Part shown: positions 18,071-42,196 of the stretch, in pieces
Position numbering within the stretch: the stretch's first letter is position 1
Layout of the letters: the number at the start of each line of letters is the position of its first letter
Source: a virus
DNA: 47,430 nt
Direction: 5' to 3' (one strand)
Virus genome (UHGV): UHGV-0334146
Notes under the pieces: model-generated
The model's input: only the letters and a program-made list of their open reading frames with translations
Told to the model about the DNA's origin: nothing
Databases searched by the model: none
Program-made: the position numbers and the translations under genes

Positions 18071-18105
18071 TATATTAACTTGAATCCGAACAGGGAGAGA
18101 GGACC

Positions 18106-19176
18106 ATGGATTTTTCGGAAAGAATTGCTGAATTGTCGAAAAAGGTAAAGAATCTGGGAGATAGCCTCAAGACCGAAGAGGCCACGAAAAACGCCTTGGT
18201 GATGCCTTTTATCGCGGCCCTGGGATACGACGTTTTCAACCCTGCGGAAGTCGTGCCCGAATTTTCAGCCCCCATCGGCGAATATAAGGACGCCCGCGTG
18301 GACTATGCGATTCTTGTGGACGGCAAGCCTATCCTTCTTCTAGAGTGCAAGGCTTTGGGCACGTCTCTCGACATGAAGCACTGCAACCAGCTACAGCTTT
18401 ACTTCCACGGAACGGAAGCCCCTATTGCCATTCTGACAGACGGCAACCGCTACCGGTTCTATTCCGATCTTGAAACTGCCAACAAAATGGACAGCAAGCC
18501 CTATATGGAGTTCGTCCTTGACGATATGGACGAAATGCTGCTCCCGGAACTGCGCAAACTGGCAAAGGGCAAGTTTGATCGGGATGCCTGCATGAGCGCG
18601 GCAAACGAACTCAAGTACAACCGAGAGTTCAAACGCCTCATGTCCGAACAAATGGAAAAGCCGCACGAAGATTTCGCGCGCTTTTTCATCGGCCAGACGT
18701 ATGATGGACGTATCACGCAAAACGTTCTGGATCGCTTCACTCCAATCCTTACCGCTGCGCTTGACCAGTTCATCAACGACCGCATCAACGACCGCTTGAA
18801 AAATGCCATGACGCAGCAGAAACCGGAAATTGTAGAGATAGAGTCCGAAGATACCCCACAAGGAAAAGAGCAGGATTCGCGTATAGTCACCACCGAGGAA
18901 GAAAAAGAGGCGTATTACCTTGTCAAATCGCTTCTGATGGGCACCGTTGATCCGGGGCGCGTAGCCATGCGGGACAGTATCAGCTACTGCTCCATCCTTC
19001 TTGACGACAACAGGCTCAAGCCTCTGTGCCGCCTGTATTTCAACGGAAAACAGTGGAGGGTCGGACTGTTTGATGGGGAGAATAAGGACGCAAAGGAAGA
19101 CATCGAAAAACTGGAAGATATTATCCCCTTTGCGGATCGAATCCGGGCTACGGCCTTGAAATACGATAACAAGTAA
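18106..19176 (+). CDS. PD-(D/E)xK nuclease-fold protein with an HSDR_N (type I R-subunit N-terminal)-like domain
   Basis: 356 aa. EEATKNALVMPFIAALGYDVF…VDYAILVDGKPILLLECKALG parallels the EcoKI HsdR …FADYVLFVGLKPIAVVEAKR motif (D…E-x-K). Low GC. RBS GGGAGAGAGGACC precedes the ATG. Confidence 0.6.
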   Translation: MDFSERIAELSKKVKNLGDSLKTEEATKNALVMPFIAALGYDVFNPAEVVPEFSAPIGEYKDARVDYAILVDGKPILLLECKALGTSLDMKHCNQLQLYFHGTEAPIAILTDGNRYRFYSDLETANKMDSKPYMEFVLDDMDEMLLPELRKLAKGKFDRDACMSAANELKYNREFKRLMSEQMEKPHEDFARFFIGQTYDGRITQNVLDRFTPILTAALDQFINDRINDRLKNAMTQQKPEIVEIESEDTPQGKEQDSRIVTTEEEKEAYYLVKSLLMGTVDPGRVAMRDSISYCSILLDDNRLKPLCRLYFNGKQWRVGLFDGENKDAKEDIEKLEDIIPFADRIRATALKYDNK

Positions 19177-19527
19177 AACTTTCCAACGTGGCGTTGCCCG
19201 CCAATGATGAAGAACATCCAGATGCGGGCAATGCCACTGCTTTTCTCTTTACATTTTCCGAGTTTTGTGCTGTCTTTTGTGTACGGGCTTCAGAACCCCG
19301 TAGGCGGACAAACGCCACCCGATAGCATGGCGCTTTTTTATGCCCTTTTTCCAAAGTCAAGAGTTTTTCTTGGCTGTCTTTTGGGCTATTATTGCATCCA
19401 ATGTTTGCCGGGTGTGGCGGATATGTCCAAGCGAAAGCTAAAGGCCGCCAGCGGTTCCTACGCCGTTCTGAACACCCGGCGCTTTCTATTTCAGAGAGTG
19501 TAATTCAGACAATGTAGGAGTTGCATT

Positions 19528-20448
19528 ATGGAAATGGCCCTAATCTTCAACGAATTTATCTTCACGCCTGTCACTCACCAAAACAGTCTCTGGATTCGTT
19601 CTTCTGAATTGGCTAAAGCACTTGGCTATTCCGACGACCGCAAGGTTGGTGTGCTCTATGCCCGACATAAGGATGAATTCTCCAATAATATGAGCGTGGT
19701 TCTCAATTTGAGTACCACGGATGTACCCGCTATGAATCGCATCTTTTCCCTTCGCGGTTGCCATTTGGTTGCGATGCTAGCGCGTACTCCTATTGCCAAG
19801 GCCTTCCGCAAGTGGGTGCTAGACGTCATCGAGCAGTACGGCGACAGGGTGCCAGTTGAAAGCCCTGTGACGCTCAACGATGAGCTGATCAGTGCGGCGG
19901 AACGTGCCGAACTCAAGCTCATCGTAGACGCCAAGCTCTCAACATACCCCGCCGCCGTGCAGGGCAAGGCCCGCGCCGAGATATGGGCGAAGCACAACCG
20001 CCATTTCCGCATCGCGGAATACAGCCAGCTCCCGGCCCGGCTTATGCCCGAGGCCCGCGAGTTTCTGCTTTCCGTCCGCGTCCGCGCCATCAATGCCATA
20101 CCCACGGCGGAATCCGCGATCCCGTACCCGTCGCTTCCCGTCGCATCGTCACTATACCGCGACCGCGTGAGGGAGCTTGAACGGCTCGAACAGGATTGGA
20201 TGGAACTTGCAGTCCTGATCCGCGACCGCGCTTATGGACTGGAACGAGACTTCCGCCGAGTGACGCAAGGAACGTATCCCGAACTGCTCCGGCATGTATC
20301 GCCATCCGGGAAGACGCCCGTTGACGCGCTTATCCAGCTCATGACAGCCCCAACCTACACCGCCCGGCAAAACCTCGAATCCGCGCTTGATGATATGCGT
20401 CTTGCCATCCGTGCCGCGAAGACCGCGAACAGGTTGATGCTAGGGTAA
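19528..20448 (+). CDS. BRO-N domain protein (antirepressor-like)
   Basis: 306 aa. The N-terminal FIFTPVTHQNSLWIRSSELAKALGYSD… is a Bro-N signature. RBS GTAGGAG. Confidence 0.65.
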   Translation: MEMALIFNEFIFTPVTHQNSLWIRSSELAKALGYSDDRKVGVLYARHKDEFSNNMSVVLNLSTTDVPAMNRIFSLRGCHLVAMLARTPIAKAFRKWVLDVIEQYGDRVPVESPVTLNDELISAAERAELKLIVDAKLSTYPAAVQGKARAEIWAKHNRHFRIAEYSQLPARLMPEAREFLLSVRVRAINAIPTAESAIPYPSLPVASSLYRDRVRELERLEQDWMELAVLIRDRAYGLERDFRRVTQGTYPELLRHVSPSGKTPVDALIQLMTAPTYTARQNLESALDDMRLAIRAAKTANRLMLG

Positions 20449-20503
20449 TCCTTGGCAAGCCTACATGAATCATATAAGACTTTACCAACGGAGGGATTCC
20501 CCC

Positions 20504-20815
20504 ATGCTGCTGTTCGATGATGGGAAAAAGCTTGAAAAGGCCGTCGGCGAGGAAGCCGCAAAAGCCATCGTGGAAGTACTGGAACGCTTTGACGAGAGTC
20601 AAAGGAACGCCAGTGCTACCAAGGGAGATCTGCGCGAAACTGAACTGCGGTTGCAAAAAGAAATTCGGGAATTGGACCTGAAAGTGCAAGCGGAGATCGA
20701 AAAAATTCGTGCTGAAGTGTTGAAGGTCAAGTATGATCTTTTGAAATGGCAAATTGCCATAGGGTTTGCCCTTGTCGCAGTTATGGCCAAGGGCTTCGGC
20801 TGGCTCGGATTCTAA
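20504..20815 (+). CDS. XhlA-like coiled-coil membrane protein
   Basis: Trimmed to M14 (RBS GGAGGGA). Coiled-coil N-terminus and a C-terminal TM (WQIAIGFALVAVMAKGFGWLGF). Confidence 0.45.
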   Translation: MLLFDDGKKLEKAVGEEAAKAIVEVLERFDESQRNASATKGDLRETELRLQKEIRELDLKVQAEIEKIRAEVLKVKYDLLKWQIAIGFALVAVMAKGFGWLGF

Positions 20816-20838
20816 TAAAGAAAGAATATCGTAGAAAA

Positions 20839-20872
20839 GGGGTGGCTTTAAGAGCCGCCCCTTTTTGTTTTT
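20839..20872 (+). terminator. Strong intrinsic terminator
   Basis: GGGGTGGC-tttaaga-GCCGCCCC followed by TTTTTGTTTTT, with AAAA upstream. Confidence 0.65.
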
Positions 20873-20915
20873 CTGCCTCTCCCTTCTGTTACTGATGAGT
20901 TAAAAAAGATAAAAC

Positions 20916-20961
20916 TTTTTTTGAAAAAATTGTTTATTTTTTCAAAAAATGGTGCTATTGT
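20916..20961 (+). promoter_or_regulatory. Promoter with a 13-bp inverted-repeat operator upstream of the three-gene moron
   Basis: TTTTTTTGAAAAAA-ttgttta-TTTTTTCAAAAAA (two mutually inverted AT palindromes), then TGcTATTGT as a -10-like element, then RBS AAAGGAGAAG and the ATG at 20994. Confidence 0.45.
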
Positions 20962-20993
20962 ATTTTCAACGAAAGGGTAAAGGAGAAGCCACC

Positions 20994-21497
20994 ATGAAGC
21001 TGTACCACGGAAGCATGATTGAACATTTGGCTATCTCTAACTCAGGAACAGGGTTAGGGTATAACTTCGGAGCGATGTTCTTTGCCCGCACGTATGGAAC
21101 AGCAAAGGGATACGGAGATTACGTCTACCAGTGCGAAGTAGACGTCAAGGATATCTTTTTTACGGAAGACCTTCCGTATCTTGATGACGGTGCTGCGGGA
21201 ACGGCTCTACGTGAAATTATGGAAGAGCGCGGGATAGACGAAATCCATTTTGATCTATGCTGGCAAGCCGTGGTTTCGGAAGAACTGGACTTTCAAGAAC
21301 GAGGAGACTGGGCAGACCTTCTCGGAATGGACGAGGACGACGCGGGTTGGGAGGCTCAGGCCATGCGTATCGCCTTTGCCCGTAAGTTGGGCTTCAAGGC
21401 TGTTGGAATGGATGACGAATGTGGAAGTATCGCGGTTCTTCCCGAGTTCATAAAGCTGGAAGCGTCAACGGAGGCAGACGATGAAGAGGAAGACTAA
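20994..21497 (+). CDS. Small acidic protein; possible minimal PARP-like (H-Y-E class) ADP-ribosyltransferase
   Basis: 167 aa. The N-terminal MKLYHGS…NFGAMFFARTYGTAKGY…YVYQCEVD resembles the PARP catalytic H-G-S, Y-x-F-G-x-G-x-Y-F-A and Y…E elements. The C-terminal 50 aa are highly acidic (…EASTEADDEEED). About 45% GC. The fold assignment is an inference. Confidence 0.45.
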   Translation: MKLYHGSMIEHLAISNSGTGLGYNFGAMFFARTYGTAKGYGDYVYQCEVDVKDIFFTEDLPYLDDGAAGTALREIMEERGIDEIHFDLCWQAVVSEELDFQERGDWADLLGMDEDDAGWEAQAMRIAFARKLGFKAVGMDDECGSIAVLPEFIKLEASTEADDEEED

Positions 21498-22872
21498 GAT
21501 AGACATCGACGATCTTATCGATTTCAGTTCAAAGCTGGTGAACTCGAATTCCAGCATCGGTATTCGCTTGTCGTCGGGTGCCGCGCTCTCCCTTCCGTAC
21601 CTGTCCACGAGGACATGTCTTGCGGCAGGGATTTCTATGCCGCTGGATACGGCAAACGGGGCCAAGGATGTGGGAAAGGTAAGTGCTCTATACAAGACAC
21701 TCGAAGAGGGGGAGGAAGGAGAGAAAGCAGATACAGAGGCGGCATTGAAGAAAATCCGTAAAACAGGATTTGCCAGAAAAACAGAGTCTGTCGACAGACG
21801 GATTCGTCAACTGCTCATCCCTAAAGACGTACCCTCTGGGTATGTCTCTTTGTCTCCCCTCCCCTCCATTGGACTTTCCGTTTTGCTGTTAGGAGCCGTT
21901 ACAAGGCATAATCAAGATGTCTTTTCAAAAAAGAAGGAAGGTATCAAAATTCGACGGGCACATCTCGCTTTGGGCGGGGCAAACCCTCAGAATCTAGGAT
22001 ACGCTGCGTCCAAAAAGGCGATACAATATCCTGTTTTTCTTTCTACACCCAAATCCGTGCGCGGAAATGCCAGCCGTCAGGCGTCAGGAAAGGGAACTTA
22101 CCTGATCCTTTCCAATCTCTTTGTGCAAACGGCAAACATCTTGACGAATTATACTATGCTCAACGGCGCGCCCCTCTTTGCAGCATGGGGGATGGGACAT
22201 GCACTGGAGCGCGAGATGCATGGTCCCAAAGTTACCGGAGTATGCCTTGTTGTGCATAGCATCGAACCCCTTGGGGAGCATGAAACCGCTATTTTCGAGC
22301 CTAGCCAAAGATTAGGAGCGGCTTTTACTTTTGAAAAATCCCGTAACGGGAGCGACTACGCAAAAGGCTCCACACATCTCTCTTTGCAGCCCGGTGCAAC
22401 GGGGCATATACGGGTGAGCCTTATCTTTGAACTGTCGGAAGCCCTGCATTCCGTACCGAACGCCGTGGATCTTTTCTTGAACTTCGGAAAGTTCTCCGGT
22501 GGGCTGATCACTTCATACGACGCCCCGGCTTTGCATGATGACCGCTCTACGCTTCTAGAGTGCATTCCCGCCGGGAAAGTTGTTTTGGATCGGCGCGACG
22601 TTATGAGCCCTGGAAACCCCATTGAACAGCTTGTAACCGCGATAGGAACGTACAGCGGAAAATGGCTGTCCGCAACGAATATCGGTTTTTCAGCAATCAC
22701 AGACTTTCAAGTTCGCGGAGGGGCACGGAACGGGTGCCTCCATGCTTTTGCGGAGCCGCTGATCGGCATTACAGAATACGTCTCTACTGAAAAGAGGATA
22801 CACGGGTATTTCTGGCGCAGCCAGTGGGAAGAAGATAGCTTTTTGATGAGGGGAGATTCAACAAATGAATGA
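21481..22872 (+). CDS. Hypothetical 463-aa protein with no recognisable domain
   Basis: It overlaps the preceding gene by 17 nt and the following gene by 8 nt, which indicates translational coupling. Low GC. No Walker, HTH or nuclease motifs were recognised. Confidence 0.55.
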   Translation: MKRKTKIDIDDLIDFSSKLVNSNSSIGIRLSSGAALSLPYLSTRTCLAAGISMPLDTANGAKDVGKVSALYKTLEEGEEGEKADTEAALKKIRKTGFARKTESVDRRIRQLLIPKDVPSGYVSLSPLPSIGLSVLLLGAVTRHNQDVFSKKKEGIKIRRAHLALGGANPQNLGYAASKKAIQYPVFLSTPKSVRGNASRQASGKGTYLILSNLFVQTANILTNYTMLNGAPLFAAWGMGHALEREMHGPKVTGVCLVVHSIEPLGEHETAIFEPSQRLGAAFTFEKSRNGSDYAKGSTHLSLQPGATGHIRVSLIFELSEALHSVPNAVDLFLNFGKFSGGLITSYDAPALHDDRSTLLECIPAGKVVLDRRDVMSPGNPIEQLVTAIGTYSGKWLSATNIGFSAITDFQVRGGARNGCLHAFAEPLIGITEYVSTEKRIHGYFWRSQWEEDSFLMRGDSTNE

Positions 22873-23086
22873 TGCACAAGAAAAAAAGCAGGGGGGACGC
22901 CGTAAAGGATCTGGACGTAAAAAAAAGGTTGAAAATCGTGCAACAGTAAAGACTGTATCTATGCCGGATCATGTCTGGGAACGGCTGAACGATGTATGTA
23001 CGGATAGGGGTATCCTACGCTCACAGGTAGTACGGGAAGCAGTCGAGATGTGGCTGGACGCAAATATACAGCAGCTTGGAAAATGA
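22865..23086 (+). CDS. Ribbon-helix-helix (CopG / ParD-like) DNA-binding protein
   Basis: 73 aa. A basic N-terminus is followed by …TVKTVSMPDHVWERLNDVCTDRGILRSQVVREAVEMWL, a classic RHH β-α-α pattern. Confidence 0.6.
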   Translation: MNDAQEKKQGGRRKGSGRKKKVENRATVKTVSMPDHVWERLNDVCTDRGILRSQVVREAVEMWLDANIQQLGK

Positions 23087-23099
23087 CGCCTGACTACGT

Positions 23100-23140
23100 A
23101 AAGAAAGCCCCAACCGCCTGTTTAACGGTTGGGGCTTTCG
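23100..23140. terminator. Bidirectional intrinsic terminator between the moron and the capsid gene
   Basis: AAAGAAA-GCCCCAACC-gcctgtttaac-GGTTGGGGC-TTTCG. Confidence 0.65.
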
Positions 23141-23159
23141 CATGGAGGGAAGGATGGGA

Positions 23160-24173
23160 CTAGGCTCCAGTCATTTGCGCAAAGGCAAAGGGCATGAGCA
23201 CGATACCGCCGTAGGTGGTGCCGACGAACTTCTGACGGAAGCTGGACAGGTCGGGCACGACGCGTCCAGCACGCATCTTTTCTCCGAAGGCCAGCGTGCC
23301 GGATCGCTGCCCGTTCACTTCGGGGGCGATGAGGAACATGGTTTCCCCGGCGGTCATGCTGTGCAGCTCGGGGACGGTCACGATGTCAATGCGGGTGAAG
23401 TACCGCTTCAACATATCCAGCACGGACACGTTGAAATCGGTAGCCGCGCCGAGGCGAACGGCCAGTTCGGGGGAGAGGCAGAGCTTGAGGGGCGTGTCTT
23501 TGTCAATAAGGCCGCTGGACTGCTCGGAAAGCTGTGCGAACAGGGCGAGGACGTCGTTGTAGATTTGCACCGTGGTCTTGTCGGCCCATTTCGTGGAGCC
23601 GCCCGTGCCCGTGGCCCCTGCGGTGATCGCAGCAGGGAGGTTCGGATCGTTGAGGATGCCGTAGATTTCCTTCCCGGCGACGCCGAGCAGGTAGAAACGG
23701 TTCTGGTCGATGTCGATGACGTTGGCGGCCGCACGCTGCTTGGAGGCAGCGAGGTTGACTTTCGCCGTGCTCGACATGTCCACTTCAAAGTCTCCGTAGG
23801 TGATGGACGTCTGGAAGACGTACTGCACGCGGGTTTGCCATTCGGAGTTCACGCCCGAAGTCGTGCCGTTGGCATAGTCGGAATACGGCTCGGTCTTTCC
23901 GGTCATTTCGTCCACGCGCCACTTCATGTACGGGGTCGTCCAATCGCCCTTCTTCTCTTCACCGAAGATTTCACGGGCGCGCCGGGGCGCGGTCAGGATT
24001 TCGATGACCATCGGGTCGATATACGCCAGAAGCTCGGCGGGGACGGTCGTGTTCGGAGTAGTGATGAGCGCGGCGTCCTGCGCAATGCGGGCGCGGTTCT
24101 CCGGAGTTGCCCACATGCGGGCGCCCGGGAAGATAAAGCCGTAGCGCTTGGCCTGTTCAAAAGTCGGATTCAT
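23160..24173 (-). CDS. Major capsid protein
   Basis: 337 aa. It is the last gene of the portal→protease/scaffold→capsid operon. RBS AGGAGGTACTAC-ATG. Confidence 0.6.
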   Translation of the reverse strand: MNPTFEQAKRYGFIFPGARMWATPENRARIAQDAALITTPNTTVPAELLAYIDPMVIEILTAPRRAREIFGEEKKGDWTTPYMKWRVDEMTGKTEPYSDYANGTTSGVNSEWQTRVQYVFQTSITYGDFEVDMSSTAKVNLAASKQRAAANVIDIDQNRFYLLGVAGKEIYGILNDPNLPAAITAGATGTGGSTKWADKTTVQIYNDVLALFAQLSEQSSGLIDKDTPLKLCLSPELAVRLGAATDFNVSVLDMLKRYFTRIDIVTVPELHSMTAGETMFLIAPEVNGQRSGTLAFGEKMRAGRVVPDLSSFRQKFVGTTYGGIVLMPFAFAQMTGA

Positions 24174-24183
24174 GTAGTACCTC

Positions 24184-24822
24184 CTACGCTCCGGCGGCGG
24201 CTGCGCCGAGGTTGGTGCGGGCCTGTTCCGCAGTGGTTGCGCCAGTTCCGCCGTTGGCCACGCCGAGCGCTCCGGTGGCGTTGCTGAAATCTTTCTGCAT
24301 CAGGTTCGAGGTGTCGCCGCCGGATCCCGACGCTGCGGCCTGTCCCCAATTGCTGATGATGATCGGTTCCCCGATTTCGCCGGGCGTCTTGACGACCCAC
24401 CCCGTATCGAGGTGCGTGGCGTCGGGGGTCCCGGTGCTGATTGAACCGTCAGCGGTGGAGGCAAGGACAGCCTGCCCCACCGTGGCCTTGGTCGTGGAAA
24501 CGGCCCAATAGTCGCCCTTTACGGCCACGGTGAGGTTCGAGCCTGCCGGGACGGTCAAAGTGCCGTCAGAAAGCAGTTCGTAGTTCACGTAGTTGATGAC
24601 GCGCTCCACGAAGCCGAGCACGGCTGTGGCGGTGCCAGCAACGTTGGTGGCCTGCGTGTTGTCGATCACGCCGGAATCCACGACGGGGAAGACGAAGCGC
24701 CCCACAGGGAGGGCCACCGCCGCCAGAGGGTTGAGCGGGGTGTAGATGCTCTGGTCGGGCGTCGCTTTATCGCCAGCAACGCCGGGAGCGACGGAGAGAT
24801 TGACTTGGGACTGCAAAGGCAT
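24184..24822 (-). CDS. Head structural / decoration-like protein (hypothetical)
   Basis: Trimmed to M41 (strong RBS AGGAGG). Gly/Thr-rich. It sits between the scaffold and capsid genes. Confidence 0.4.
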   Translation of the reverse strand: MPLQSQVNLSVAPGVAGDKATPDQSIYTPLNPLAAVALPVGRFVFPVVDSGVIDNTQATNVAGTATAVLGFVERVINYVNYELLSDGTLTVPAGSNLTVAVKGDYWAVSTTKATVGQAVLASTADGSISTGTPDATHLDTGWVVKTPGEIGEPIIISNWGQAAASGSGGDTSNLMQKDFSNATGALGVANGGTGATTAEQARTNLGAAAAGA

Positions 24823-29004: not shown

Positions 29005-29751
29005 ATGTACAAAAGCATCATGGTGTTTCTGCTGGCCGCGCTGGTTATGACGTCCGAGGCGCAGGCCGCGGGCAACGAATGGAACGATTCGTTCAGCAAG
29101 GCCAAGAAGACGCTGGAACGGCAGGTCTATTATGACCATCGGATCACGCTCTACTGCGGGGCGGCGTTCGACGAGAAGAAGAACGTCACCCTGCCGGAGG
29201 GTTTTACTGCCGCGAAGCACGAGAAGCGGGCCGGGAAGGTGGAATGGGAACACGTGGTCCCCGCCGAGAACTTCGGGCAGGCTTTTCCGGAGTGGCGCGA
29301 GGGGGACGCACAGTGCGTGGACGCGAAGGGGAAGGCATTCAAGGGCCGCAAGTGCGCGGAAAAGGTGAACCGGGAATACCGCCTCATGCAAAGCGACATG
29401 TACAACCTCTATCCGGCCATCGGTGCGGTCAACGCCCTGCGCCAGAATTACAACTTCCAGATGCTGCCCGGCGAGGAGCCGGATTTCGGAAGCTGCGGGA
29501 TGAAGATCGCCGACCGCAGGGCCGAGCCGCCCGTCCGGGCGCGGGGACAAATTGCCCGGACCTACAAGTATATGGCCGACGCCTACGCCCCGCGCTACCG
29601 CATGAGCCGCCAGCAGACGCAGCTCATGGACGCATGGGACAAGATGTATCCGGTTGATGCGTGGGAATGCACGCGGGCCAGACGTATTGAAAGACTACAA
29701 GGTAACGAGAACCCTTTTGTGAAGGAAAGATGTCAAGAAGCAGAACTCTAA
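29005..29751 (+). CDS. endA: Secreted endonuclease I (EndA / Dns family periplasmic or extracellular DNase)
   Basis: 248 aa. Signal peptide MYKSIMVFLLAALVMTSEAQA|AG. Strong colinear similarity to E. coli EndA: KVEWEHVVPAENFG, SDMYNLYPAIGAVNALRQNYNF, AEPPVRARGQIARTYKYM, SRQQTQLMDAWDKMYPVDAWECTRARRIERLQGNENPFVKERC. It has its own AT-rich promoter (TTGTAT-17-TATATA) and RBS AGGGAGGT. Confidence 0.85.
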   Translation: MYKSIMVFLLAALVMTSEAQAAGNEWNDSFSKAKKTLERQVYYDHRITLYCGAAFDEKKNVTLPEGFTAAKHEKRAGKVEWEHVVPAENFGQAFPEWREGDAQCVDAKGKAFKGRKCAEKVNREYRLMQSDMYNLYPAIGAVNALRQNYNFQMLPGEEPDFGSCGMKIADRRAEPPVRARGQIARTYKYMADAYAPRYRMSRQQTQLMDAWDKMYPVDAWECTRARRIERLQGNENPFVKERCQEAEL

Positions 29752-36980: not shown

Positions 36981-37405
36981 TCCATCCCCCCGGATCTTCT
37001 TCCGTGAAATTCGTATGAGGGAAGCCCCTCAGCGTCGGATCCTTTACGCAACTTTTCCCAGCATTGAGGGCATCTGTAGTCAGTGATCCACCGCCCACAG
37101 CTCTTGCCGGCAACCCCCGCGCACAGATGCTTTCCCTTGCGGGGGTCTGCCTTGGCTGCGCTTTTTTTTGCGAGATACGCTTCCCGGCTCAAGCCGCTTT
37201 GCGCTGCGCTGGCACAGATGCGGGAGCAAAAACGCGGGTTCTTGCGGTTGAGGGGATTGAACTCCTTTCCGCAGCATTCGCACTTGGCCTCTTTTTTCTG
37301 GGTGGCGGCAATCTGGCACTCCTTCGAGCAGTACCTTGCCGAATGCTCGCGGCTGGGAGTCACCTCAAACATCCGACCGCACTGTTGGCAAATCAGGATC
37401 GGCAT
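36968..37405 (-). CDS. Cys-rich zinc-ribbon protein
   Basis: 145 aa with at least six CxxC pairs (CQQCG, CSKEC, CECCG, CSRIC, CPQCW). Confidence 0.45.
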   Translation of the reverse strand: MPILICQQCGRMFEVTPSREHSARYCSKECQIAATQKKEAKCECCGKEFNPLNRKNPRFCSRICASAAQSGLSREAYLAKKSAAKADPRKGKHLCAGVAGKSCGRWITDYRCPQCWEKLRKGSDAEGLPSYEFHGRRSGGMEWDW

Positions 37406-37857
37406 TCTCCCTTCCTCCCTTCATGCTGCACAGCCGTCTCCGTTTCCATCAGGTCGATGATCAGGGCCCCCAACAGCTTTGCCCGCACCTTCTGCGGCGC
37501 ATTCCTACGTATGGCCCTTTGCAGGTCTGCAAGACGCTCCACATCATCGAGCTGTTCGCCTTCCACGCCCTTGTCAGGTTCCGCACACATCGGAAGAAGC
37601 GAAAATCCGAGATCCGCCGCAAGAAGCTGGAGGGCGGACACGTCGCCCGTTTGATGCATGATGAACGCAGCCTGTTCCAACCCGAGCTTGACGGACGTGC
37701 GGTCGGCGTAGGGATTGAGGACATTGCCGAGACTCGACGGAGCCATATCCATTTCCGCCGCCATTGCTCGGACGCCGCCGGGATACTTCTTCACCGCCGT
37801 CTGTACGGCTTCGATAACGTGTTCAAGTGTGGGGATTGTCATCATTTCACCGTTCAT
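37393..37857 (-). CDS. CII-like regulatory protein (phage 186 CII / CP76 family)
   Basis: Trimmed to M16. …GVRAMAAEMDMAPSSLGNVLNPYADRTSVKLGLEQAAFIMHQTGDVSALQLLAADLGFSLLP parallels 186 CII …LNPEQPHQFTPPELWLLTDLTEDSTLVDGFLAQI…. Confidence 0.55.
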   Translation of the reverse strand: MNGEMMTIPTLEHVIEAVQTAVKKYPGGVRAMAAEMDMAPSSLGNVLNPYADRTSVKLGLEQAAFIMHQTGDVSALQLLAADLGFSLLPMCAEPDKGVEGEQLDDVERLADLQRAIRRNAPQKVRAKLLGALIIDLMETETAVQHEGRKGECRS

Positions 37858-38092
37858 TCTGTTTGTGTGCCGCCCTATTCTGGGGGCATGGAACTTGTTC
37901 ACCTACTCCTCACCCTGCGCGGCCCTGTCTGGCGCGTCCGCATCCTGTCCGGCGGGACCATCAGCTGGAAGTGCTACCGCGCCGAGGACTACCCCACACC
38001 AGAAGCCGTGGCCCGGCGGTGCGCGGAGGGGCTAGTCTCTGGGCATGAAAACGACAAGCATGACGAGCCCCACGGCAACGGCGAGGAAAAAG

Positions 38093-38326
38093 TTATTCAG
38101 CATGGCTCACCTCTTCGAGTTCGGTGGGAGTGCTGGGGGCGGCTATAAGCCGCTCTTCATTTCTAACTAAAAAGTCCAGCAATTTATCATAGGCGCTCTG
38201 TCGCCTTTTTGGAGCAGACAAGAGCCGACACAAGGTAACGGGATGGATGCCTACAGCTTTGGCAAGGGCTACTTGCGTCCATCCTCTCTTCTTCATCAGT
38301 TCTTTTGCAGCGTATTCGATATTCAT
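38093..38326 (-). CDS. Cro-like XRE-family HTH repressor
   Basis: 77 aa. HTH GWTQVALAKAVGIHPVTLCRLL. It is divergent from the CI-like gene across an operator-rich 92-nt region. Confidence 0.6.
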   Translation of the reverse strand: MNIEYAAKELMKKRGWTQVALAKAVGIHPVTLCRLLSAPKRRQSAYDKLLDFLVRNEERLIAAPSTPTELEEVSHAE

Positions 38327-38418
38327 GTGGAAATATTAGCTCATTCACTATTCAATGGTCAAGCAAATTTGCAAATTAAAAAATTGCTTTTATTAGCGCG
38401 TATGCTAATGGTGTAACC
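38327..38418. promoter_or_regulatory. Divergent immunity-region promoters with operator-like palindromes
   Basis: AATTTGCAAATT is a 12-bp perfect palindrome at about 38366-38377. ATTAGC-n6-GCTAAT lies at about 38392-38409, with a third ATTAGC at about 38335. The region is AT-rich. Confidence 0.5.
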
Positions 38419-39165
38419 ATGGGTAAAACAGACTGGATCATTAAATTTTTTGAGTCCAAAATTGGGCACGGGAAGGAATTCGCCACACGAGTTGATATGG
38501 CGAGGTTTTTAGGGTTGTCCCCAACGCAACAGACAAAATTGTTCAATTTTTTGAAAGGTTCAGACACGCAATATAAGGCCGTCCTAGATTGGTTTGAACG
38601 ACTTGGGGGCAAGTTCGAATCGGAGACTACACCTTCTAAAAACGTCTGCTTCATCGATGCGCGTGTGGCCCCCGCAGGCAATGCTCTCCCCCCTCCCCCG
38701 GATGAAGACTACCTCGCCGTTCCCCTTGTGGAAGAAGTTGGCGCGGGGCCCGGTATCATTCCACAAAATGAACTCATCTCGTGGTTCCTCGTCTGGCGTC
38801 ACCAGCGGGCCATTCAACACAAGCGTGACCTCATTGCCGTCATGCTGGGCAAACACTCAACGTCTATGGTTCCCACGCTCAAGCCACAAGACATTGTGCT
38901 TGTAGACCGACAAGATAAAGACGTGATGAACTTCAAAGGTAGGATCATGCTTGTCCTCGATCCTTTCGACGGCAGCGGAAAAATCAAGCGTGTGGCGGCA
39001 GAAAACCAGCCGAAAAAGCGCGACTATCGCATCACCTACTATTCGGATAACGCCGCCGAGAATCCCCCCGAGGTCTACAGCCTTATGGAAGACTTCGAAG
39101 GGGACTGGAACAAGTCCATCGTCGGGCGGGTTGTATGGGCGTGGAGTGACGTGAGCTGCAAATAA
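38419..39165 (+). CDS. CI-like repressor with a C-terminal S24 (LexA-type) autopeptidase domain
   Basis: 248 aa. Ala-Gly site (VAPAGNAL), Ser motif STSMVPTLKPQDIVLVD and Lys (GKIKRV). Confidence 0.75.
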   Translation: MGKTDWIIKFFESKIGHGKEFATRVDMARFLGLSPTQQTKLFNFLKGSDTQYKAVLDWFERLGGKFESETTPSKNVCFIDARVAPAGNALPPPPDEDYLAVPLVEEVGAGPGIIPQNELISWFLVWRHQRAIQHKRDLIAVMLGKHSTSMVPTLKPQDIVLVDRQDKDVMNFKGRIMLVLDPFDGSGKIKRVAAENQPKKRDYRITYYSDNAAENPPEVYSLMEDFEGDWNKSIVGRVVWAWSDVSCK

Positions 39166-39179
39166 CCGTGGAGAGCCCC

Positions 39180-39614
39180 ATGTATAAAATCTATCAGGCT
39201 GGCCCCCTTTTCTCAGATGCGGAACAGTCGTGGCACGGTAAACTTTCCGAGCGACTGCGTGCAGCAGGGCACTCCGTGGTCTGGCCGGGAGACTTGCTCA
39301 CCTCAGACCGAATCAAAGCCGCTGGCCCGGGGGCAATCTCCCTTATCTTTGATACGTGTCGAAACGCCATTGATTGCAGTACCTGTGTTGTCGCCCTGCT
39401 TGATGGCACTCAGGTTGATGACGGCACGGCTTGGGAAATCGGGTACGCCTATGCCAAAGGGCTTCCTATCTTTGGTATCCGCACCGACTTTCGACAAGGC
39501 GGGGATACGCCGTTTAACCACATGAACAGTATGATCGAGGGTTGCCTGTACGGTTTTGCCGCAGATATCGACGGGCTTTTGCTGATGATGTGTGCGGCCT
39601 CATGTAGCAAATGA
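39180..39614 (+). CDS. Nucleoside 2-deoxyribosyltransferase-family protein (Nuc_deoxyrib_tr / DNPH1-like)
   Basis: MYKIYQAGPLFS…, IDCSTCVVALLDG, DDGTAWEIGYAYAKGLPIFG and D.R are hallmark motifs. RBS GGAGAG. Its start is 15 nt after the CI stop, so it is co-transcribed. Confidence 0.7.
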   Translation: MYKIYQAGPLFSDAEQSWHGKLSERLRAAGHSVVWPGDLLTSDRIKAAGPGAISLIFDTCRNAIDCSTCVVALLDGTQVDDGTAWEIGYAYAKGLPIFGIRTDFRQGGDTPFNHMNSMIEGCLYGFAADIDGLLLMMCAASCSK

Positions 39615-39648
39615 AAATCCCCGCCGAAGCGGGGAAAAGGAGTTGTAA

Positions 39649-39849
39649 ATGTTTCAGTATAAAGTTTGTACTAGGATCGATCTGCAAAACTCTGATGATG
39701 AAGCTACAACACAAGATTGGCTAAACGAGCAAGGACGGGAAAATTGGGAACTTGTTTCGTGCATTCCCTTAGGAACTGAAACAGAGGAAAACGGTTTTTT
39801 CAGAAATACAATTCGCTACGTATTTAAACGCGAAATCCAACGATCTTAA
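39649..39849 (+). CDS. DUF4177-like small protein
   Basis: 66 aa. MFQYKVC…DWLNEQGRENWELVSC. RBS AAAAGGAG. Very low GC. Confidence 0.5.
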   Translation: MFQYKVCTRIDLQNSDDEATTQDWLNEQGRENWELVSCIPLGTETEENGFFRNTIRYVFKREIQRS

Positions 39850-40615
39850 AAGATACTAAGCAGGCTGATTTGTCTTTGTCTGATGTAACATTTCCATCTT
39901 CATCAACACAAAACACACCTTCGATGACAGGTCCAAAAGTTGGAGATTTTGGGTACAATTCTTGCTGTGCCACGTCTGCGCAGGCCTTGCGGTAGTTTTC
40001 GGTAGCATCATTGGCCCCTACCGTGAGGAAGTTCAAAAAATCTTTGTACTTCGTGATTCATCTGCAGCCCCTCCTCGCGAGGGGCTTTTTTGTGCCCTAT
40101 GGGACGTGACCACCGATGCCTTCATTGTGTCGGCGGTTATTGTTTTACCTTGTTATTATCGAATACGCAAATTCATATTGACTCATTGTTAGCGAATTTG
40201 CTATTATCTCTTCACGACGAACGGGGAAGGCGAACACGGCGCGGCAACGGCCCGCCGAAAGCTGAAACCGGACGGAGGAAGCCCCAACAAGTACGAGCAC
40301 GGCAAGCGCAAGCCTTTGGGAGCGGGAAGCACGCGACGGCAGGAAATGGGGTGATGTGGAGACAGGCCGCGTAGGGACGGCGGGACGGAAAAACGGCTGA
40401 AAAGAAGGCCGAAGCGTAAAGCGCACCGAAGCGACGGGGGCCGAGCCGACCAACAGGGCCCACGGTTACGACACAAAGATCGGGCCGTGAAACGTGATGA
40501 AATACGAATTTTTACATCCGGGCGGTCAGTTGACTTTCTGACAATTCACCGCCCCGCATGGGAGCGCGCCCCGGCGGGGATTGGCCCCGTCGGGTGCTTG
40601 CCTTGAATCATCGAA

Positions 40616-40640
40616 GCCCGGAACTACGCCGGGCTTTTTC
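40616..40640 (+). terminator. Intrinsic terminator or attenuator just upstream of the early gene block
   Basis: GCCCGG-aactacg-CCGGGC followed by TTTTTC. Coordinates are anchored to ORF 40581. Confidence 0.4.
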
Positions 40641-40688
40641 ATTGATTCCGGGACTCCGGAACGAACTTCAAAACAGAGGAGAATAGCC

Positions 40689-40913
40689 ATGATGCAGTTC
40701 ATCGTAATTTCGCATTCGGAAAGCGGCCCATTGGTTGAGGAGTTCGAGACGAAGGCGAAGGCGGTAGACTTCGCGGAGGCTGTAGCCAGTGATGGTATGC
40801 CATCGACCATACTCATGAGAATTTCCGGGATTCCCGCAGTCTTGCCAGAACGCGAAGATTGCGGCGTTCTCCCCGGCATCGACTTCCCCGCAACGCTGCA
40901 CCCCGCTTGGTAA
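40689..40913 (+). CDS. Hypothetical protein
   Basis: 74 aa from MMQFIVISHSE…. RBS AGAGGAGAA. Confidence 0.45.
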   Translation: MMQFIVISHSESGPLVEEFETKAKAVDFAEAVASDGMPSTILMRISGIPAVLPEREDCGVLPGIDFPATLHPAW

Positions 40914-40997
40914 AGCGCCTAGCCCCGCACTTGCCCCGGATTCCGGGGCAGGAAACGGGATTGGGACGCCGATCCAGACTTCAATAGGAGAAAGATT

Positions 40998-41243
40998 ATG
41001 GCTCAAACATTCTTCTGCATCGAAACCGGGAATTCGCTCTACGGCGGAACGGTCAGACACTTTTTCAATTCACCCGCAGCCGTGATGTCGTTCCTCAAGG
41101 CGACACGGGAGGGCTGGAGCCTCCGGGCGGCGGAATGGGATGATGGGGAACTCGTCCCCACGCGGCCCATCACCAACTGCCAGTTCATCGACGAGGATGG
41201 CGGAATCGACGCCGTTCTTGAACGGCTGGAGGTGGCGGCATGA
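40998..41243 (+). CDS. Hypothetical protein
   Basis: 81 aa. RBS AGGAGAAAG. Confidence 0.45.
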   Translation: MAQTFFCIETGNSLYGGTVRHFFNSPAAVMSFLKATREGWSLRAAEWDDGELVPTRPITNCQFIDEDGGIDAVLERLEVAA

Positions 41244-41395
41244 TCAAAGAAGTGTACGTAACCCCTCCCGGCAAGAAGCGGTTCCCAATGCCACCTCAGC
41301 GCGAGCGTTTGGCACCCCCTCCGTGGGCGTTGGGCGTGGTCCTCATGGTTGTGGCGATCTTCATAGGCTCATGCGAATGGGCGAGGGGGATGTGA
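41240..41395 (+). CDS. Small membrane peptide (51 aa, putative)
   Basis: ATGA overlap with the upstream stop. MIKEVYVTPPGKKRFPMPPQRERLAPPPWALGVVLMVVAIFIGSCEWARGM has one TM. It is below the 60-aa cutoff of the ORF track. Confidence 0.3.
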   Translation: MIKEVYVTPPGKKRFPMPPQRERLAPPPWALGVVLMVVAIFIGSCEWARGM

Positions 41396-41472
41396 TGAGG
41401 CCAGAAGCCGATATGTACGACGCGGAGAGGGAAAGCGTAGACCGCACGATTCCCGATGAACCCGAATACCAC

Positions 41473-41494
41473 GGCCCCCAAAAGGGGCCTTTTT
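41473..41494 (+). terminator. Weak intrinsic terminator before the erf-like gene
   Basis: GGCCCC-caaaa-GGGGCC followed by TTTTT. Confidence 0.35.
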
Positions 41495-41527
41495 AGTTCC
41501 CGCCGATGAGCAGTGAAAGGTTGAAAT

Positions 41528-42196
41528 ATGGAAGCGAAAATTTACGGCGCGATTATCGCGGTCATGCGAGATTGCGGCTCCATCGGAAAGGACAGGCAAA
41601 CCAGTGGGTTTGCATCTTTCAAGTTCCGAGGAATTGATGATGTCTACAACGCCTTGCACCCAGTCATGTCACAGCATGGCGTGTTCTGTGTGCCGGAGGT
41701 GCTGGAAACGACACGCGAGGAGCGGGCGAACGCCAAAGGCACGGTCATGGCTTATGTGACCGCGAAGGTGCGTTTCACGTTTTACGCTGAGGACGGTTCC
41801 AGCGTTCATTGTGTGACAGTAGGCGAAGCGATGGACAGCGGAGACAAGGCCTTGCCCAAGGCGCAATCTATTGCCATGAAATACGCCATGTTCCAGACGT
41901 TCTGTATCCCTACGGAGGAAATGCCTGACCCAGACGCCGAAACGGATCACCTCGCTCCCAAAAACGGGGCCGTACAGCAACGCGCAAAGGCAAAGGCGGA
42001 AAATGCCAGCCCGATGACGCCGGAACAGTCAAAGGCCCTCATGTCTTATCTGACCAAACGGCATGGTGACAGCCGAGCGGATTACCTTGCCGAACTTTCA
42101 CGATTCTTCGGGCGGCCCATTGCAAGCTCCCGTGAATTGACGAAGGCAGATGTTTCCGAATTTCTGAACGCCGTCAACGGAGGACAAAATGGCTAG
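41528..42196 (+). CDS. ERF-family single-strand annealing recombinase
   Basis: 222 aa. N-terminal KIYGAIIAVMRDCGSIGKD…FKFRGIDDVYNALHPVMSQHGV… is a pattern typical of ERF. The gene is adjacent to ssb. Confidence 0.65.
   Translation: MEAKIYGAIIAVMRDCGSIGKDRQTSGFASFKFRGIDDVYNALHPVMSQHGVFCVPEVLETTREERANAKGTVMAYVTAKVRFTFYAEDGSSVHCVTVGEAMDSGDKALPKAQSIAMKYAMFQTFCIPTEEMPDPDAETDHLAPKNGAVQQRAKAKAENASPMTPEQSKALMSYLTKRHGDSRADYLAELSRFFGRPIASSRELTKADVSEFLNAVNGGQNG

What the first reader, a model, noticed from the sequence alone, without database searches (positions are those of the whole stretch)
38327..39614. Immunity switch whose repressor is co-transcribed with a nucleoside 2-deoxyribosyltransferase / DNPH1-family gene
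There is a classic divergent CI(S24) / Cro arrangement with palindromic operators (AATTTGCAAATT; ATTAGC-n6-GCTAAT). A gene with all Nuc_deoxyrib_tr hallmark motifs starts 15 nt after the cI stop. Members of this fold hydrolyse or transfer the base of (modified) dNMPs. A lysogen-expressed enzyme of this kind could destroy hypermodified nucleotides (for example 5hm-dUMP/dCMP) needed by superinfecting phages, or deplete dNMP pools, in either case acting as a nucleotide-targeting exclusion function.
Basis: partly seen in the sequence, partly recalled or inferred. Interest (0 to 1): 0.6.

Follow-up and report, generated by a model that had tools for sequence, protein, structure and literature searches.

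The report
Prophage repressor operon carrying NDT enzyme
A common prophage of the human gut bacterium Bilophila wadsworthia carries a nucleoside deoxyribosyltransferase-type gene as a swappable cargo cassette directly behind its repressor gene, in a slot where related prophages carry anti-phage genes; whether it protects the cell is untested.

Summary
A lambda-like switch (cro-like gene, operators, S24-type cI) is followed 14 nt after the cI stop by a 144-aa gene that is a strong PF05014 match (E 9e-21). No terminator lies between them.

New findings:
- The stretch between the cI stop (39165) and a terminator/OL-PL region (40066) is a hypervariable cargo slot, the position rexAB occupies in lambda. 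Prophages with the identical cI carry other cassettes there, or nothing (21 nt).
- In related prophages the cI operon also holds SoFic, PDC-M18 or ThsB-TIR/PDC-M50, stacked beside the NDT gene.
- cI-to-NDT linkage recurs behind four same-strand S24 repressor families and in at least four NDT clades. It is not obligatory: chromosomal homologues exist.
- The enzyme is NDT-type, not DNPH1-type. It keeps the 5'-OH-binding Asp80/Asn116 and is closest in fold to Desulfotalea NDT (TM 0.83-0.87). The 'middle' catalytic Asp is an invariant Cys60.

Verdict: this is a lysogen-expressed moron encoding a deoxynucleoside-level N-glycosyl enzyme. A defence role is plausible from location only, and nucleoside salvage is a serious rival. 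The proposed destruction of modified dNMPs is not favoured.

The parts
37393..37902 (-). cII-like activator gene, second gene of the rightward (minus-strand) early operon
   Evidence: PF06892 Phage_CP76 E 3.9e-12; phrog_101 8.2e-14
38093..38326 (-). cro-like HTH gene (77 aa), divergent from cI
   Evidence: ORF; HTH_3 E 1.5e-5, 25.4 bits against a cut-off of 23
38327..38418 (.). OR-type control region. It holds operator-like sites at 38335-38352 and 38392-38409 (ATTAGC-N6-GCTAAT type), the palindrome AATTTGCAAATT at 38366-38377, and a PR-like promoter on the minus strand (TTGACC-18-TAATAT, 38362 to 38333).
38419..39165 (+). cI-type repressor (248 aa) with an N-terminal DNA-binding part and a C-terminal S24 autopeptidase domain (Ala-Gly site, Ser149, Lys190)
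   Evidence: The identical protein is annotated 'S24 family peptidase [Bilophila wadsworthia]'.
39166..40066 (+). Hypervariable cargo slot between the cI stop and the terminator/OL-PL region (rexAB-equivalent position). In this window it holds two cassettes.
   Evidence: Homology to related prophages breaks exactly at 39163/4 and resumes at 40066/7. Slot contents vary and empty 21-nt alleles exist.
39180..39614 (+). NDT-type gene (144 aa; alternative GTG start at 39168). Active-site residues are Tyr5, Cys60, Asp80, Glu86 and Asn116-x-Met118.
   Evidence: PF05014 E 9.1e-21; PDB phmmer 7M5H 1e-14 and 7O62 1.8e-9; AF2 pLDDT 92.8; Foldseek 7O62 TM 0.83-0.87; residue mapping
39618..39635 (+). GC-rich hairpin (7 bp, -13.8 kcal/mol) with no U-tract on the + strand. 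It travels with the NDT cassette and marks its 3' end.
   Evidence: The homology of NDT cassettes in L021, L023 and L030 ends at 39635-39644, and in L017 at 39666.
39649..39849 (+). Second cassette: a 66-aa ORF with an AAGGAG RBS and a weak DUF4177 match. It is shared only with L004.
   Evidence: PF13783 E 1.2e-4, below the cut-off
40066..40086 (+). Intrinsic terminator (8-bp stem, 6 GC pairs, T6 tail, -15.4 kcal/mol) that closes the cI operon. It is conserved in all related prophages.
40155..40207 (+). OL/PL-type region: promoter-like TTGACT-18-TATTAT (TG-extended) flanked or overlapped by two operator-like sites (40155-40172, 40188-40205). It drives the + strand early operon (ERF, Gp157, methylase).
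   Evidence: The operators co-vary with cI type.

Best explanation
The window is a lambda-like prophage of Bilophila wadsworthia. Its immunity region reads: cro, then PR/OR/PRM, then cI, a cargo slot, a terminator, and OL/PL.

The NDT gene is a self-contained cargo cassette (gene plus 3' hairpin). It sits in the first position of that slot and is transcribed with cI from the maintenance promoter, so it is made in the lysogen and shut off when cI is cleaved.

The protein is a catalytically competent member of the nucleoside 2'-deoxyribosyltransferase branch of the NDT/DNPH1 superfamily:
- Glu86 is the covalent nucleophile, positioned by Tyr5.
- Asp80 and Asn116 hold the 5'-OH, so the substrate is a 2'-deoxynucleoside rather than a dNMP.
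- The Asp that normally contacts the base and the 3'-OH is an invariant Cys60.

It therefore most likely exchanges or removes bases on deoxynucleosides in the lysogen.

Its selective role is inferred, not shown. Because the slot is a hot spot that elsewhere carries anti-phage genes, the most likely role is a lysogen-protecting (superinfection-exclusion-type) function that works by remodelling the deoxynucleoside and base pool.

Shown: the anatomy, cassette boundaries, modularity, recurrence of the linkage, fold and residues. Inferred: co-transcription, enzymatic activity, substrate class, biological role.
For: Immunity-region architecture:
- Divergent cro and cI, cII, and operators at both OR and PL that co-vary with cI type.
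- A 14-nt gap with GGAG and no terminator before NDT; a strong terminator at 40066-40086.

Cargo slot:
- Slot boundaries are exact, and empty alleles exist.
- With the identical cI the slot holds an SDH-type protease plus a 66-aa gene, a 125/167-aa pair, or a 64-aa gene instead.
- NDT shares the cI operon with SoFic (7e-107), with PDC-M18A/B (2e-76, 2e-20), and with ThsB-TIR (3e-38) plus PDC-M50A (2e-20).

Linkage:
- NDT lies downstream of four same-strand S24 repressor families that share less than 35% identity, and beside a fifth that is convergent (L043). Gaps range from -24 to 51 nt, or one or two cargo genes intervene.
- S24-linked NDTs fall in at least four separate clades of an NJ tree.
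- No conserved partner gene exists.

Enzyme:
- PF05014 E 9e-21.
- The closest solved structures are experimentally characterised NDTs: EfPDT 7M5H, DpNDT 7O62 and CtNDT (PMC12372993, PMC10913048).
- Tyr, Asp, Glu and Asn-x-Met are conserved.
Against: - There is no experimental or expression evidence.
- PADLOC has no model matching the NDT; the best hit is ThsB at E 0.059.
- The same Cys-type NDT occurs in ordinary chromosomal neighbourhoods: an SSF transporter and glycosyltransferase; RecD2 helicase; PGK, aminotransferase and ABC transporters. This fits a housekeeping salvage enzyme that phages merely captured.
- It is a small, unregulated enzyme with no sensor or partner, unlike known NDT-fold defence effectors (retron type II, ThsI).
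- A deoxynucleoside-level activity has no established route to blocking a phage.
- The Cys60 substitution means activity cannot simply be assumed from characterised Asp-type enzymes.
- Hot-spot cargo is not always defensive.
Confidence: 0.55

Rival explanations
1. Metabolic lysogenic conversion. The prophage captured a host deoxynucleoside-salvage enzyme. Expressed with cI, it lets the lysogen interconvert deoxynucleosides and free bases. This would be a fitness benefit in the gut, or a buffer of dNTP precursor pools that lowers thymine-starvation/SOS-type spontaneous induction. It would have no direct anti-phage action.
For: - Close homologues sit in non-prophage chromosomal contexts.
- The active site is of the nucleoside type.
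- The nearest solved relatives are true NDTs with measured transferase activity (PMC12372993).
- There is no PADLOC hit, no partner or sensor, and constitutive expression would be harmless.
- In CtNDT the mutation of the equivalent Asp (D62N) keeps about 50% efficiency, so a Cys-type enzyme can plausibly still transfer (PMC10913048).
Against: - Its slot-mates in related prophages are a known defence gene and candidate defence systems.
- Repeated, often translationally coupled, placement behind unrelated S24 repressors suggests selection for lysogen-specific expression rather than random capture.
- Identical-cI prophages do without it.
Confidence: 0.3
2. One reading: a DNPH1-like dNMP N-hydrolase that destroys modified dNMPs (5hm-dUMP, 5hm-dCMP) or depletes dNMP pools needed by superinfecting phages.
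For: - It belongs to the same superfamily and has the same Tyr/Glu covalent chemistry.
- DNPH1, MilB and BcmB appear as distant fold matches (E about 1e-4).
- A phage NDT-family enzyme acting on dAMP exists (DmtZ, PMC12884076).
- A 'CMP hydrolase' domain is the predicted effector of type VIII Thoeris (bioRxiv 10.64898/2025.12.03.692087).
Against: - The two phosphate-binding serines of DNPH1 (Ser98, Ser128'; PMC10603095) are Asp80 and Asn116 here. That is the pair which holds the 5'-OH in NDTs (PMC10913048, PMC12884076).
- Sequence and fold are far closer to NDTs.
- The acid/base Asp of DNPH1 (D80) is Cys here.
Confidence: 0.07
3. A TIR/DrHyd-like NAD+-cleaving enzyme (NADase or signal maker) rather than a deoxynucleoside enzyme.
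For: - Weak TIR_2 (E 0.008) and ThsB (E 0.059) similarities.
- DrHyd/NDT-like domains act as NADase effectors in conflict systems and in type II retrons (PMC9503650; titles).
- A ThsB-TIR gene sits next to the NDT in L030.
Against: - The weak TIR hits reflect the shared Rossmannoid fold and fall below thresholds.
- The 5'-OH pocket (Asp80/Asn116) would not take a 5'-diphosphate.
- A constitutive NADase co-expressed with cI would be toxic.
- NDT occurs without any TIR in most loci.
Confidence: 0.04
4. The enzyme serves the phage's own lytic DNA synthesis (a nucleotide-metabolism auxiliary gene), and its position behind cI is incidental.
For: - Lytic Lactococcus and Enterococcus phages carry NDT genes at about 36% identity.
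- One related prophage has a second PF05014 gene in its early operon (L130).
Against: - It lies on the cI side of a strong terminator, outside both early operons.
- The linkage to the repressor recurs in many lineages.
- Expression from PRM would fall, not rise, on induction.
Confidence: 0.04

Closest known systems
Lambda immunity region with rexA-rexB (and other repressor-linked prophage exclusion genes)
   Same: Same position and logic. Accessory genes lie between cI and OL/PL, are transcribed with cI from the maintenance promoter in the lysogen, and are closed by a terminator before PL. Operators sit at both OR and OL (lambda layout from established knowledge).
   Different: The cargo is an unrelated single small enzyme, not a two-protein sensor and ion-channel pair. 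Here the slot is demonstrably modular, with many alternative cassettes and empty alleles. No exclusion phenotype is known.
Tetrameric type II NDT of Desulfotalea psychrophila (DpNDT, PDB 7O62); also EfPDT (7M5H) and CtNDT (8PQx)
   Same: Best fold match (TM 0.83-0.87) and best sequence matches. The equivalents of Tyr16, Asp94, Glu100, Asn127 and Met129 are conserved (PMC12372993).
   Different: Asp74 (DpNDT), Asp60 (EfPDT) or Asp62 (CtNDT) is Cys60 here. Identity is only 28-30% over the structural alignment. The context is a prophage cI operon instead of a chromosome, and activity is untested.
DNPH1/Rcl, MilB, BcmB (nucleotide N-hydrolases of the same superfamily)
   Same: Same fold and the Tyr/Glu double-displacement chemistry. 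They appear as distant structural matches (E 1e-4).
   Different: They bind a 5'-phosphate through Ser98/Ser128' (DNPH1) or Ser97/Arg23 (MilB) (PMC10603095). This protein has the Asp/Asn 5'-OH pair instead.
NDT-fold domains used as anti-phage effectors: type II retron effectors (Eco1/Sen2 class) and the 'CMP hydrolase' effector ThsI of type VIII Thoeris
   Same: They belong to the same superfamily and are used in phage defence. The proposed logic is cleavage of an N-glycosidic bond in a nucleotide-type metabolite.
   Different: Those are domains of larger proteins held in check by a sensor (msDNA/RT, or TIR-made cADPR). Here a bare 144-aa enzyme is expressed constitutively, and none of the PADLOC models match it.
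DmtZ of Z-genome phages (PMC12884076)
   Same: A phage-encoded NDT-family enzyme whose middle triad residue is not Asp (Asn77). It both hydrolyses and transfers.
   Different: DmtZ acts on dAMP (5'-phosphate pocket, no Asp/Asn) in the lytic nucleotide-synthesis programme. It is not linked to a repressor.

Membership tests
Nucleoside 2-deoxyribosyltransferase family (Pfam PF05014) | Profile match above the curated threshold | tested here: met
   74.6 bits against a cut-off of 28.8, E 9.1e-21
Nucleoside 2-deoxyribosyltransferase family (Pfam PF05014) | Catalytic Glu nucleophile with the N-terminal Tyr that positions it | tested here: met
   Glu86 is invariant and Tyr5 is present in 38 of 40 homologues. 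Both align with the Glu and Tyr of EfPDT, DpNDT, BpNDT and LhPDT (residues named in PMC12372993).
Nucleoside 2-deoxyribosyltransferase family (Pfam PF05014) | 5'-OH-binding Asp (Glu minus 6) and the Asn of the N-L-M motif | tested here: met
   Asp80 is present in 39 of 40 homologues, and Asn116 and Met118 in 40 of 40. Their role is described in PMC10913048 (D82, N118) and PMC12884076.
Nucleoside 2-deoxyribosyltransferase family (Pfam PF05014) | Third catalytic residue: Asp at Glu minus 26 (Asp72 LlNDT, Asp60 EfPDT, Asp74 DpNDT, Asp62 CtNDT) | tested here: not met
   Cys60 in 40 of 40 close homologues, whereas all four characterised NDTs have Asp in that column. Among 143 50%-cluster representatives with the Glu aligned, the residue is Cys in 72, Asn in 36 and Asp in 21.
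Nucleoside 2-deoxyribosyltransferase family (Pfam PF05014) | NDT fold | tested here: met
   AF2 model pLDDT 92.8. Foldseek 7O62_B E 9e-10, TM 0.83/0.87. The top 32 hits are all NDT/PDT structures.
Nucleoside 2-deoxyribosyltransferase family (Pfam PF05014) | Deoxyribosyl transfer between bases, measured | not testable with these tools
   Needs an enzyme assay.
DNPH1/Rcl-type dNMP N-hydrolases | 5'-phosphate pocket formed by Ser at Glu minus 6 and Ser from the partner subunit (Ser98/Ser128' in human DNPH1) | tested here: not met
   Asp80 and Asn116 occupy these positions. The DNPH1 residues come from PMC10603095. DNPH1 structures match only at E about 1e-4.
Lambda-type CI/Cro immunity switch | Divergent repressor and cro genes, with repeated operators at the divergent promoters and at a second (PL) promoter | tested here: met
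   The PL operators co-vary with the cI N-terminal type.
Lambda-type CI/Cro immunity switch | RecA-stimulated autocleaving S24 domain (Ala-Gly site, Ser/Lys dyad) | tested here: met
   The Gly of the Ala-Gly site (G110), Ser149 and Lys190 are invariant across nine repressors, six of which carry PF00717 hits. The protein's own Pfam score is below threshold. Cleavage itself is not testable here.
Known or candidate anti-phage defence systems (PADLOC-DB 2.0) | Match to a defence-protein model | tested here: not met
   Only ThsB at E 0.059.
Prophage defence/cargo hot spot | Fixed flanks, variable content, and recognised defence genes among the alternative or stacked contents | tested here: met
   Flanks; census including empty alleles; SoFic, PDC-M18 and ThsB/PDC-M50 in the same operon position in related prophages.

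The most novel reading that the evidence does not exclude
The Cys-type NDT is a stand-alone, constitutively expressed anti-phage enzyme that acts at the deoxynucleoside/base level. It might swap or strip bases on deoxynucleosides so that an incoming phage's salvage or modified-base pathway is starved or poisoned. This would be a defence principle distinct from the known dNTP- or NAD-depleting systems, and it would be delivered as a cI-linked cassette that moves between prophages of gut Desulfovibrionaceae.
Probability: 0.25. Interest if true: 0.7.

Novelty: new member of a known kind. Interest (0 to 1): 0.45.

Why it matters
Repressor-linked cargo slots are where prophages keep genes that pay for their upkeep, and they have been a productive place to find new anti-phage systems.

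This work maps such a slot precisely in a very common prophage of Bilophila wadsworthia, a human gut pathobiont. The exact cI protein is seen on 346 contigs and the exact NDT protein on 151.

An NDT-type enzyme is one of the slot's most frequent residents, and the association recurs behind unrelated repressors.

- If the enzyme protects the lysogen, it would be the first bare NDT-type enzyme shown to do so, and it would point to deoxynucleoside-level pool editing as a defence route.
- If it is salvage, it is a clean example of a metabolic gene wired to the lysogenic state.

Either way, two things are concrete and cheap to test. One is the uncharacterised Cys-for-Asp class, about half of the nearest 143 family representatives with an aligned catalytic Glu. 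The other is the set of unannotated cassettes in the slot: an SDH-type ClpP-like protease plus a 66-aa gene, and a 125/167-aa pair.

Tried and rejected
- **Single-sequence AlphaFold model.** It was unusable (pLDDT 38.7), so I repeated the prediction with a 40-sequence alignment.
- **Genome-contig scan with cI.** It found only one distant relative, Ca. Bilophila faecipullorum. The host was assigned instead from source names.
- **Conserved partner gene of the NDT.** The genes just up- or downstream in L130, L131, L132, L046, L045, L021 and L048 share no similarity, so a two-gene system was rejected.
- **Known defence membership.** PADLOC gives no hit for the NDT, cI or the 66-aa ORF. NCBIfam gives none for the NDT.
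- **Cultured phage records.** There is no close homologue. The only hits are about 36%-identical NDTs in large lytic Lactococcus and Enterococcus phages.
- **Obligatory cI-NDT module.** Rejected. The identical cI occurs with other cargo or none, and NDT homologues occur without any S24 gene within reach.
- **Cys60 as a prophage-specific oddity.** Rejected. Cys is the commonest residue at that column in the wider subfamily.
- **Literature.** Searches for a stand-alone NDT defence gene found only retron effectors and ThsI.
- **Rfam on 37800-41600.** No match.
- **CRISPR array near the Cas8f/Cas5f-like gene.** None found.
Full report
**What is at the coordinates**

- ORF listing and sequence show a 77-aa gene at 38093-38326 (-) and a 248-aa gene at 38419-39165 (+). 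They are separated by a 92-bp AT-rich region; GC falls to 0.41.
- The small gene is an HTH_3 protein (E 1.5e-5). A cII-like gene (PF06892, 3.9e-12) and a Dam methylase follow it on the minus strand.
- The 248-aa protein matches PHROG repressor families (phrog_4 1.1e-8, phrog_6201 9.7e-7). Its Pfam S24 match is only weak (E 0.0074, below threshold).
- Aligned with eight other repressors found later, six of which carry precomputed PF00717 hits, it shares the Gly of the Ala-Gly site, Ser149 in S-M-x-P, and Lys190.
- The identical protein is named 'S24 family peptidase [Bilophila wadsworthia]' by NCBI and UniRef.

**The switch is lambda-like at both ends**

- The 18-bp ATTAGC-N6-GCTAAT motif has four copies with at most 2 mismatches, against 0.87 expected.
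- Two copies are in the cro/cI intergenic region. One overlaps a PR-like promoter on the minus strand.
- Two more are at 40155-40172 and 40188-40205. They bracket or overlap a strong promoter-like site, TTGACT-18-TATTAT with a TG extension.
- That promoter points into the + strand early genes: ERF 41528-42196, Gp157, and a methylase.
- Across related prophages, the operator sequence at this second promoter changes together with the N-terminal type of cI. This is the behaviour expected of real operators.
- The layout is therefore cro, PR/OR/PRM, cI, a slot, a terminator (40066-40086, -15.4 kcal/mol), then OL/PL. This is the lambda arrangement, with the slot where rexA-rexB lie (lambda layout from established knowledge).

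**The NDT gene and its linkage to cI**

- The ATG at 39180 is 14 nt after the cI stop and is preceded by GGAG. No + strand terminator-like site lies between the cI stop and that ATG.
- Family N-termini agree with this start.
- The protein matches PF05014 at E 9.1e-21 and PF15891 at 6.9e-10.
- Co-transcription is inferred from this geometry. It has not been measured.

**The slot is a modular cargo hot spot**

- The identical cI protein is indexed in 664 blocks of public assemblies.
- BLASTN of the window against related loci shows homology ending exactly at the cI stop (39163/4) and resuming exactly at 40066/7.
- I classified the slot in the window plus 25 loci retrieved with cI, that is, without reference to NDT:

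| Slot content | Loci |
|---|---|
| NDT, alone or with another cassette, always in first position | 6 |
| SDH-type ClpP-like protease plus a 66-aa gene | 9 (one also carries NDT) |
| 125-aa / 167-aa pair | 4 |
| Other small genes | several |
| Empty (21 nt) | 2 |

- The NDT cassette has its own boundary. Its homology in L021, L023 and L030 ends at 39635-39644 (in L017 at 39666), just past a 7-bp GC hairpin at 39618-39635 that lacks a U-tract.
- The window's second cassette is a 66-aa ORF with a weak DUF4177 match. It is shared only with L004.

**Does the cI-NDT linkage recur?**

Yes, widely, but it is not obligatory.

- NDTs at least 90% identical to the window's sit 3, 41 or 51 nt behind at least two unrelated repressor types (window-type cI and the L030-type GDSMEP repressor, 25% identity) and several immunity variants of the former.
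- More distant NDTs (47-72% identity) also follow S24 repressors:
  - L131 and L041 overlap the repressor gene.
  - L048 follows after 65 nt.
  - L130: cI, a 232-aa gene, NDT.
  - L132: cI, PDC-M18A, PDC-M18B, NDT.
  - D. desulfuricans CP176628: cI, SoFic, NDT, SDH-type protease.
- The repressors fall into five groups sharing less than 35% identity. Four are upstream on the same strand. The fifth (L043) is convergent.
- In a neighbour-joining tree, S24-linked NDTs occur in at least four separate clades interleaved with unlinked ones.
- In the less biased metagenome scan, 18 of 80 loci had an S24 gene upstream on the same strand.
- No other gene is consistently next to NDT.

**Company it keeps**

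- Genes stacked with NDT in the cI operon include SoFic (PADLOC 6.9e-107), PDC-M18A/B (1.9e-76, 2.3e-20), and a ThsB-type TIR (3.1e-38) with PDC-M50A (2.2e-20).
- SoFic is a described defence gene. The PDC entries are candidates only.
- This is guilt by association, not proof.

**Homologues outside prophages**

- P0048 lies between an SSF transporter and a glycosyltransferase.
- P0057 sits in a MarR/DsbA/PALP neighbourhood.
- A Pfam census of 62 neighbours of Cys-type NDTs with no S24 gene nearby returned mainly housekeeping families: RecD2 helicase, PGK, aminotransferase, ABC transporters and response regulators. A few mobile-element markers also appeared.
- The family is therefore a normal cellular enzyme family that prophages have repeatedly placed in their lysogenic operon.

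**What kind of enzyme it is**

- phmmer against PDB sequences finds EfPDT (7M5H, 1e-14), DpNDT (7O62, 1.8e-9), BpNDT and LhPDT.
- With a 40-sequence alignment, AlphaFold gives pLDDT 92.8.
- Foldseek ranks DpNDT first (E 9e-10, TM 0.83/0.87), followed by EfPDT and CtNDT. DNPH1 and BcmB appear only at E about 1e-4.
- PMC12372993 lists the catalytic residues of EfPDT (Tyr5, Asp60, Asp80, Glu86, Asn130') and DpNDT (Tyr16, Asp74, Asp94, Glu100, Asn127', Met129').
- Mapping onto the window protein gives Tyr5, Cys60, Asp80, Glu86, Asn116 and Met118.

Two consequences follow.

1. **Substrate class.**
   - The Asp/Asn pair binds the 5'-OH in NDTs (D82/N118 in CtNDT, PMC10913048; general statement in PMC12884076).
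   - DNPH1 uses Ser98 and Ser128' at these positions to hold the 5'-phosphate (PMC10603095).
   - The expected substrate is therefore a deoxynucleoside, not a dNMP.
2. **The middle residue is Cys.**
   - The Asp at Glu minus 26 is Cys in all 40 close homologues, whereas all four characterised NDTs have Asp.
   - The substitution is not restricted to prophages. Among 143 representatives of the nearest 50%-identity clusters with the Glu aligned, the residue is Cys in 72, Asn in 36 and Asp in 21.
   - In CtNDT the D62N mutant keeps about 50% efficiency, and D62 contacts the base and the 2'/3'-OH (PMC10913048).
   - In DNPH1 the equivalent D80 is proposed to protonate the leaving base (PMC10603095).
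   - A Cys-type enzyme is therefore probably active, but its base specificity, sugar specificity or transfer-to-hydrolysis balance may differ. No Cys-type member has been characterised as far as I could find.

**How it most likely works**

- **Shown:**
  - the immunity-region anatomy;
  - the exact modular slot;
  - the NDT cassette and its recurrence behind repressors;
  - an NDT-type fold and active site.
- **Inferred:**
  - In the lysogen, PRM transcription yields cI, NDT and the 66-aa ORF on one mRNA ending at 40086.
  - The enzyme forms a Glu86-deoxyribosyl intermediate from deoxynucleosides and passes it to another base or to water.
  - The benefit accrues to the lysogen.
- **Defence or salvage?**
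  - This cannot be decided here. I put defence somewhat ahead because of the slot's other contents and the repeated, often translationally coupled, wiring to repressors.
  - Salvage is a serious rival because of the chromosomal homologues, the lack of any regulator, and the absence of a known route from deoxynucleoside chemistry to phage exclusion.

**Comparison with what is known**

- Functionally the arrangement is a rexAB-type, repressor-linked moron.
- Biochemically the protein is an NDT of the tetrameric DpNDT-like group with a Cys variant of the triad.
- NDT-fold domains are already known as regulated defence effectors: type II retrons and the 'CMP hydrolase' ThsI of type VIII Thoeris.
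- Phage NDT-family enzymes are also known in lytic nucleotide metabolism (DmtZ, PMC12884076). I found no report of a bare NDT as a lysogen-expressed or defence gene.
- The gene itself is already annotated as 'nucleoside 2-deoxyribosyltransferase' in Bilophila and Caudoviricetes records.

**Verdict**

The finding is an orderly, well-supported example of a known kind of arrangement, with a new and testable cargo.

- Novelty: new member of a known kind.
- Interest: moderate (0.45).
- The most novel reading not excluded is a stand-alone deoxynucleoside-level anti-phage enzyme. I give it about 0.25.

Noticed in passing
window 40208-40500 (+): A long purine-rich untranslated leader follows the PL-like promoter. 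It is conserved across related prophages, with internal modules swapped out. RNAalifold on six variants gives a long-range closing helix and an inner helix with three pairs changed on both sides. There is no Rfam match at E up to 1. It may be a structured leader or antitermination-type RNA of the early operon.
   Followed up: partly
window 21481-22872 (+), within a + strand island at 17471-24287: A 463-aa protein looks like a Cas8f (N-terminal, PADLOC 2.8e-20) plus Cas5f (C-terminal, 1.9e-21; Pfam Cas_Csy2 1.9e-10) fusion. It is flanked by unannotated 182-aa and 381-aa genes, an HSDR_N-domain protein and a Bro-N protein. No repeat array was found anywhere in the window. It may be a phage-borne minimal type I-F-like module.
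   Followed up: partly
window 29005-29751 (+); L001-L006 equivalents: An Endonuclease_1 gene (E 1.5e-29) sits on the opposite strand between the portal and terminase genes. Related prophages carry SocA_Panacea or a P22 antirepressor-type gene at that spot, so it appears to be a second variable cargo slot.
   Followed up: no
L001 10780-11867 (same slot as window 39166-40066); L045 5509-6519: The commonest alternative cassette behind this cI is a 295-aa SDH-type ClpP-like serine protease (PF01972 1.1e-8) plus a 66-aa gene. A different SDH-type protease follows the NDT in a D. desulfuricans prophage. Neither has a PADLOC match. It is a recurrent, uncharacterised cI-linked cargo.
   Followed up: partly
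L030 3472-4638: In a related prophage the NDT cassette is followed by a ThsB-type TIR gene and a convergent membrane protein. These match PADLOC candidate system PDC-M50 (3.1e-38 / 2.8e-35 and 2.2e-20).
   Followed up: partly
L130 7781-8263: One related prophage carries a second, divergent PF05014 gene (160 aa) in its early operon, in addition to the cI-linked NDT.
   Followed up: no
window 39824-40036 (-): A 70-aa TTG-start ORF lies antisense to and overlaps the end of the 66-aa ORF, in the low-GC part of the slot. The hairpin at 39618-39635 has a T-run on the minus strand and could terminate it. Its coding status is unknown.
   Followed up: no
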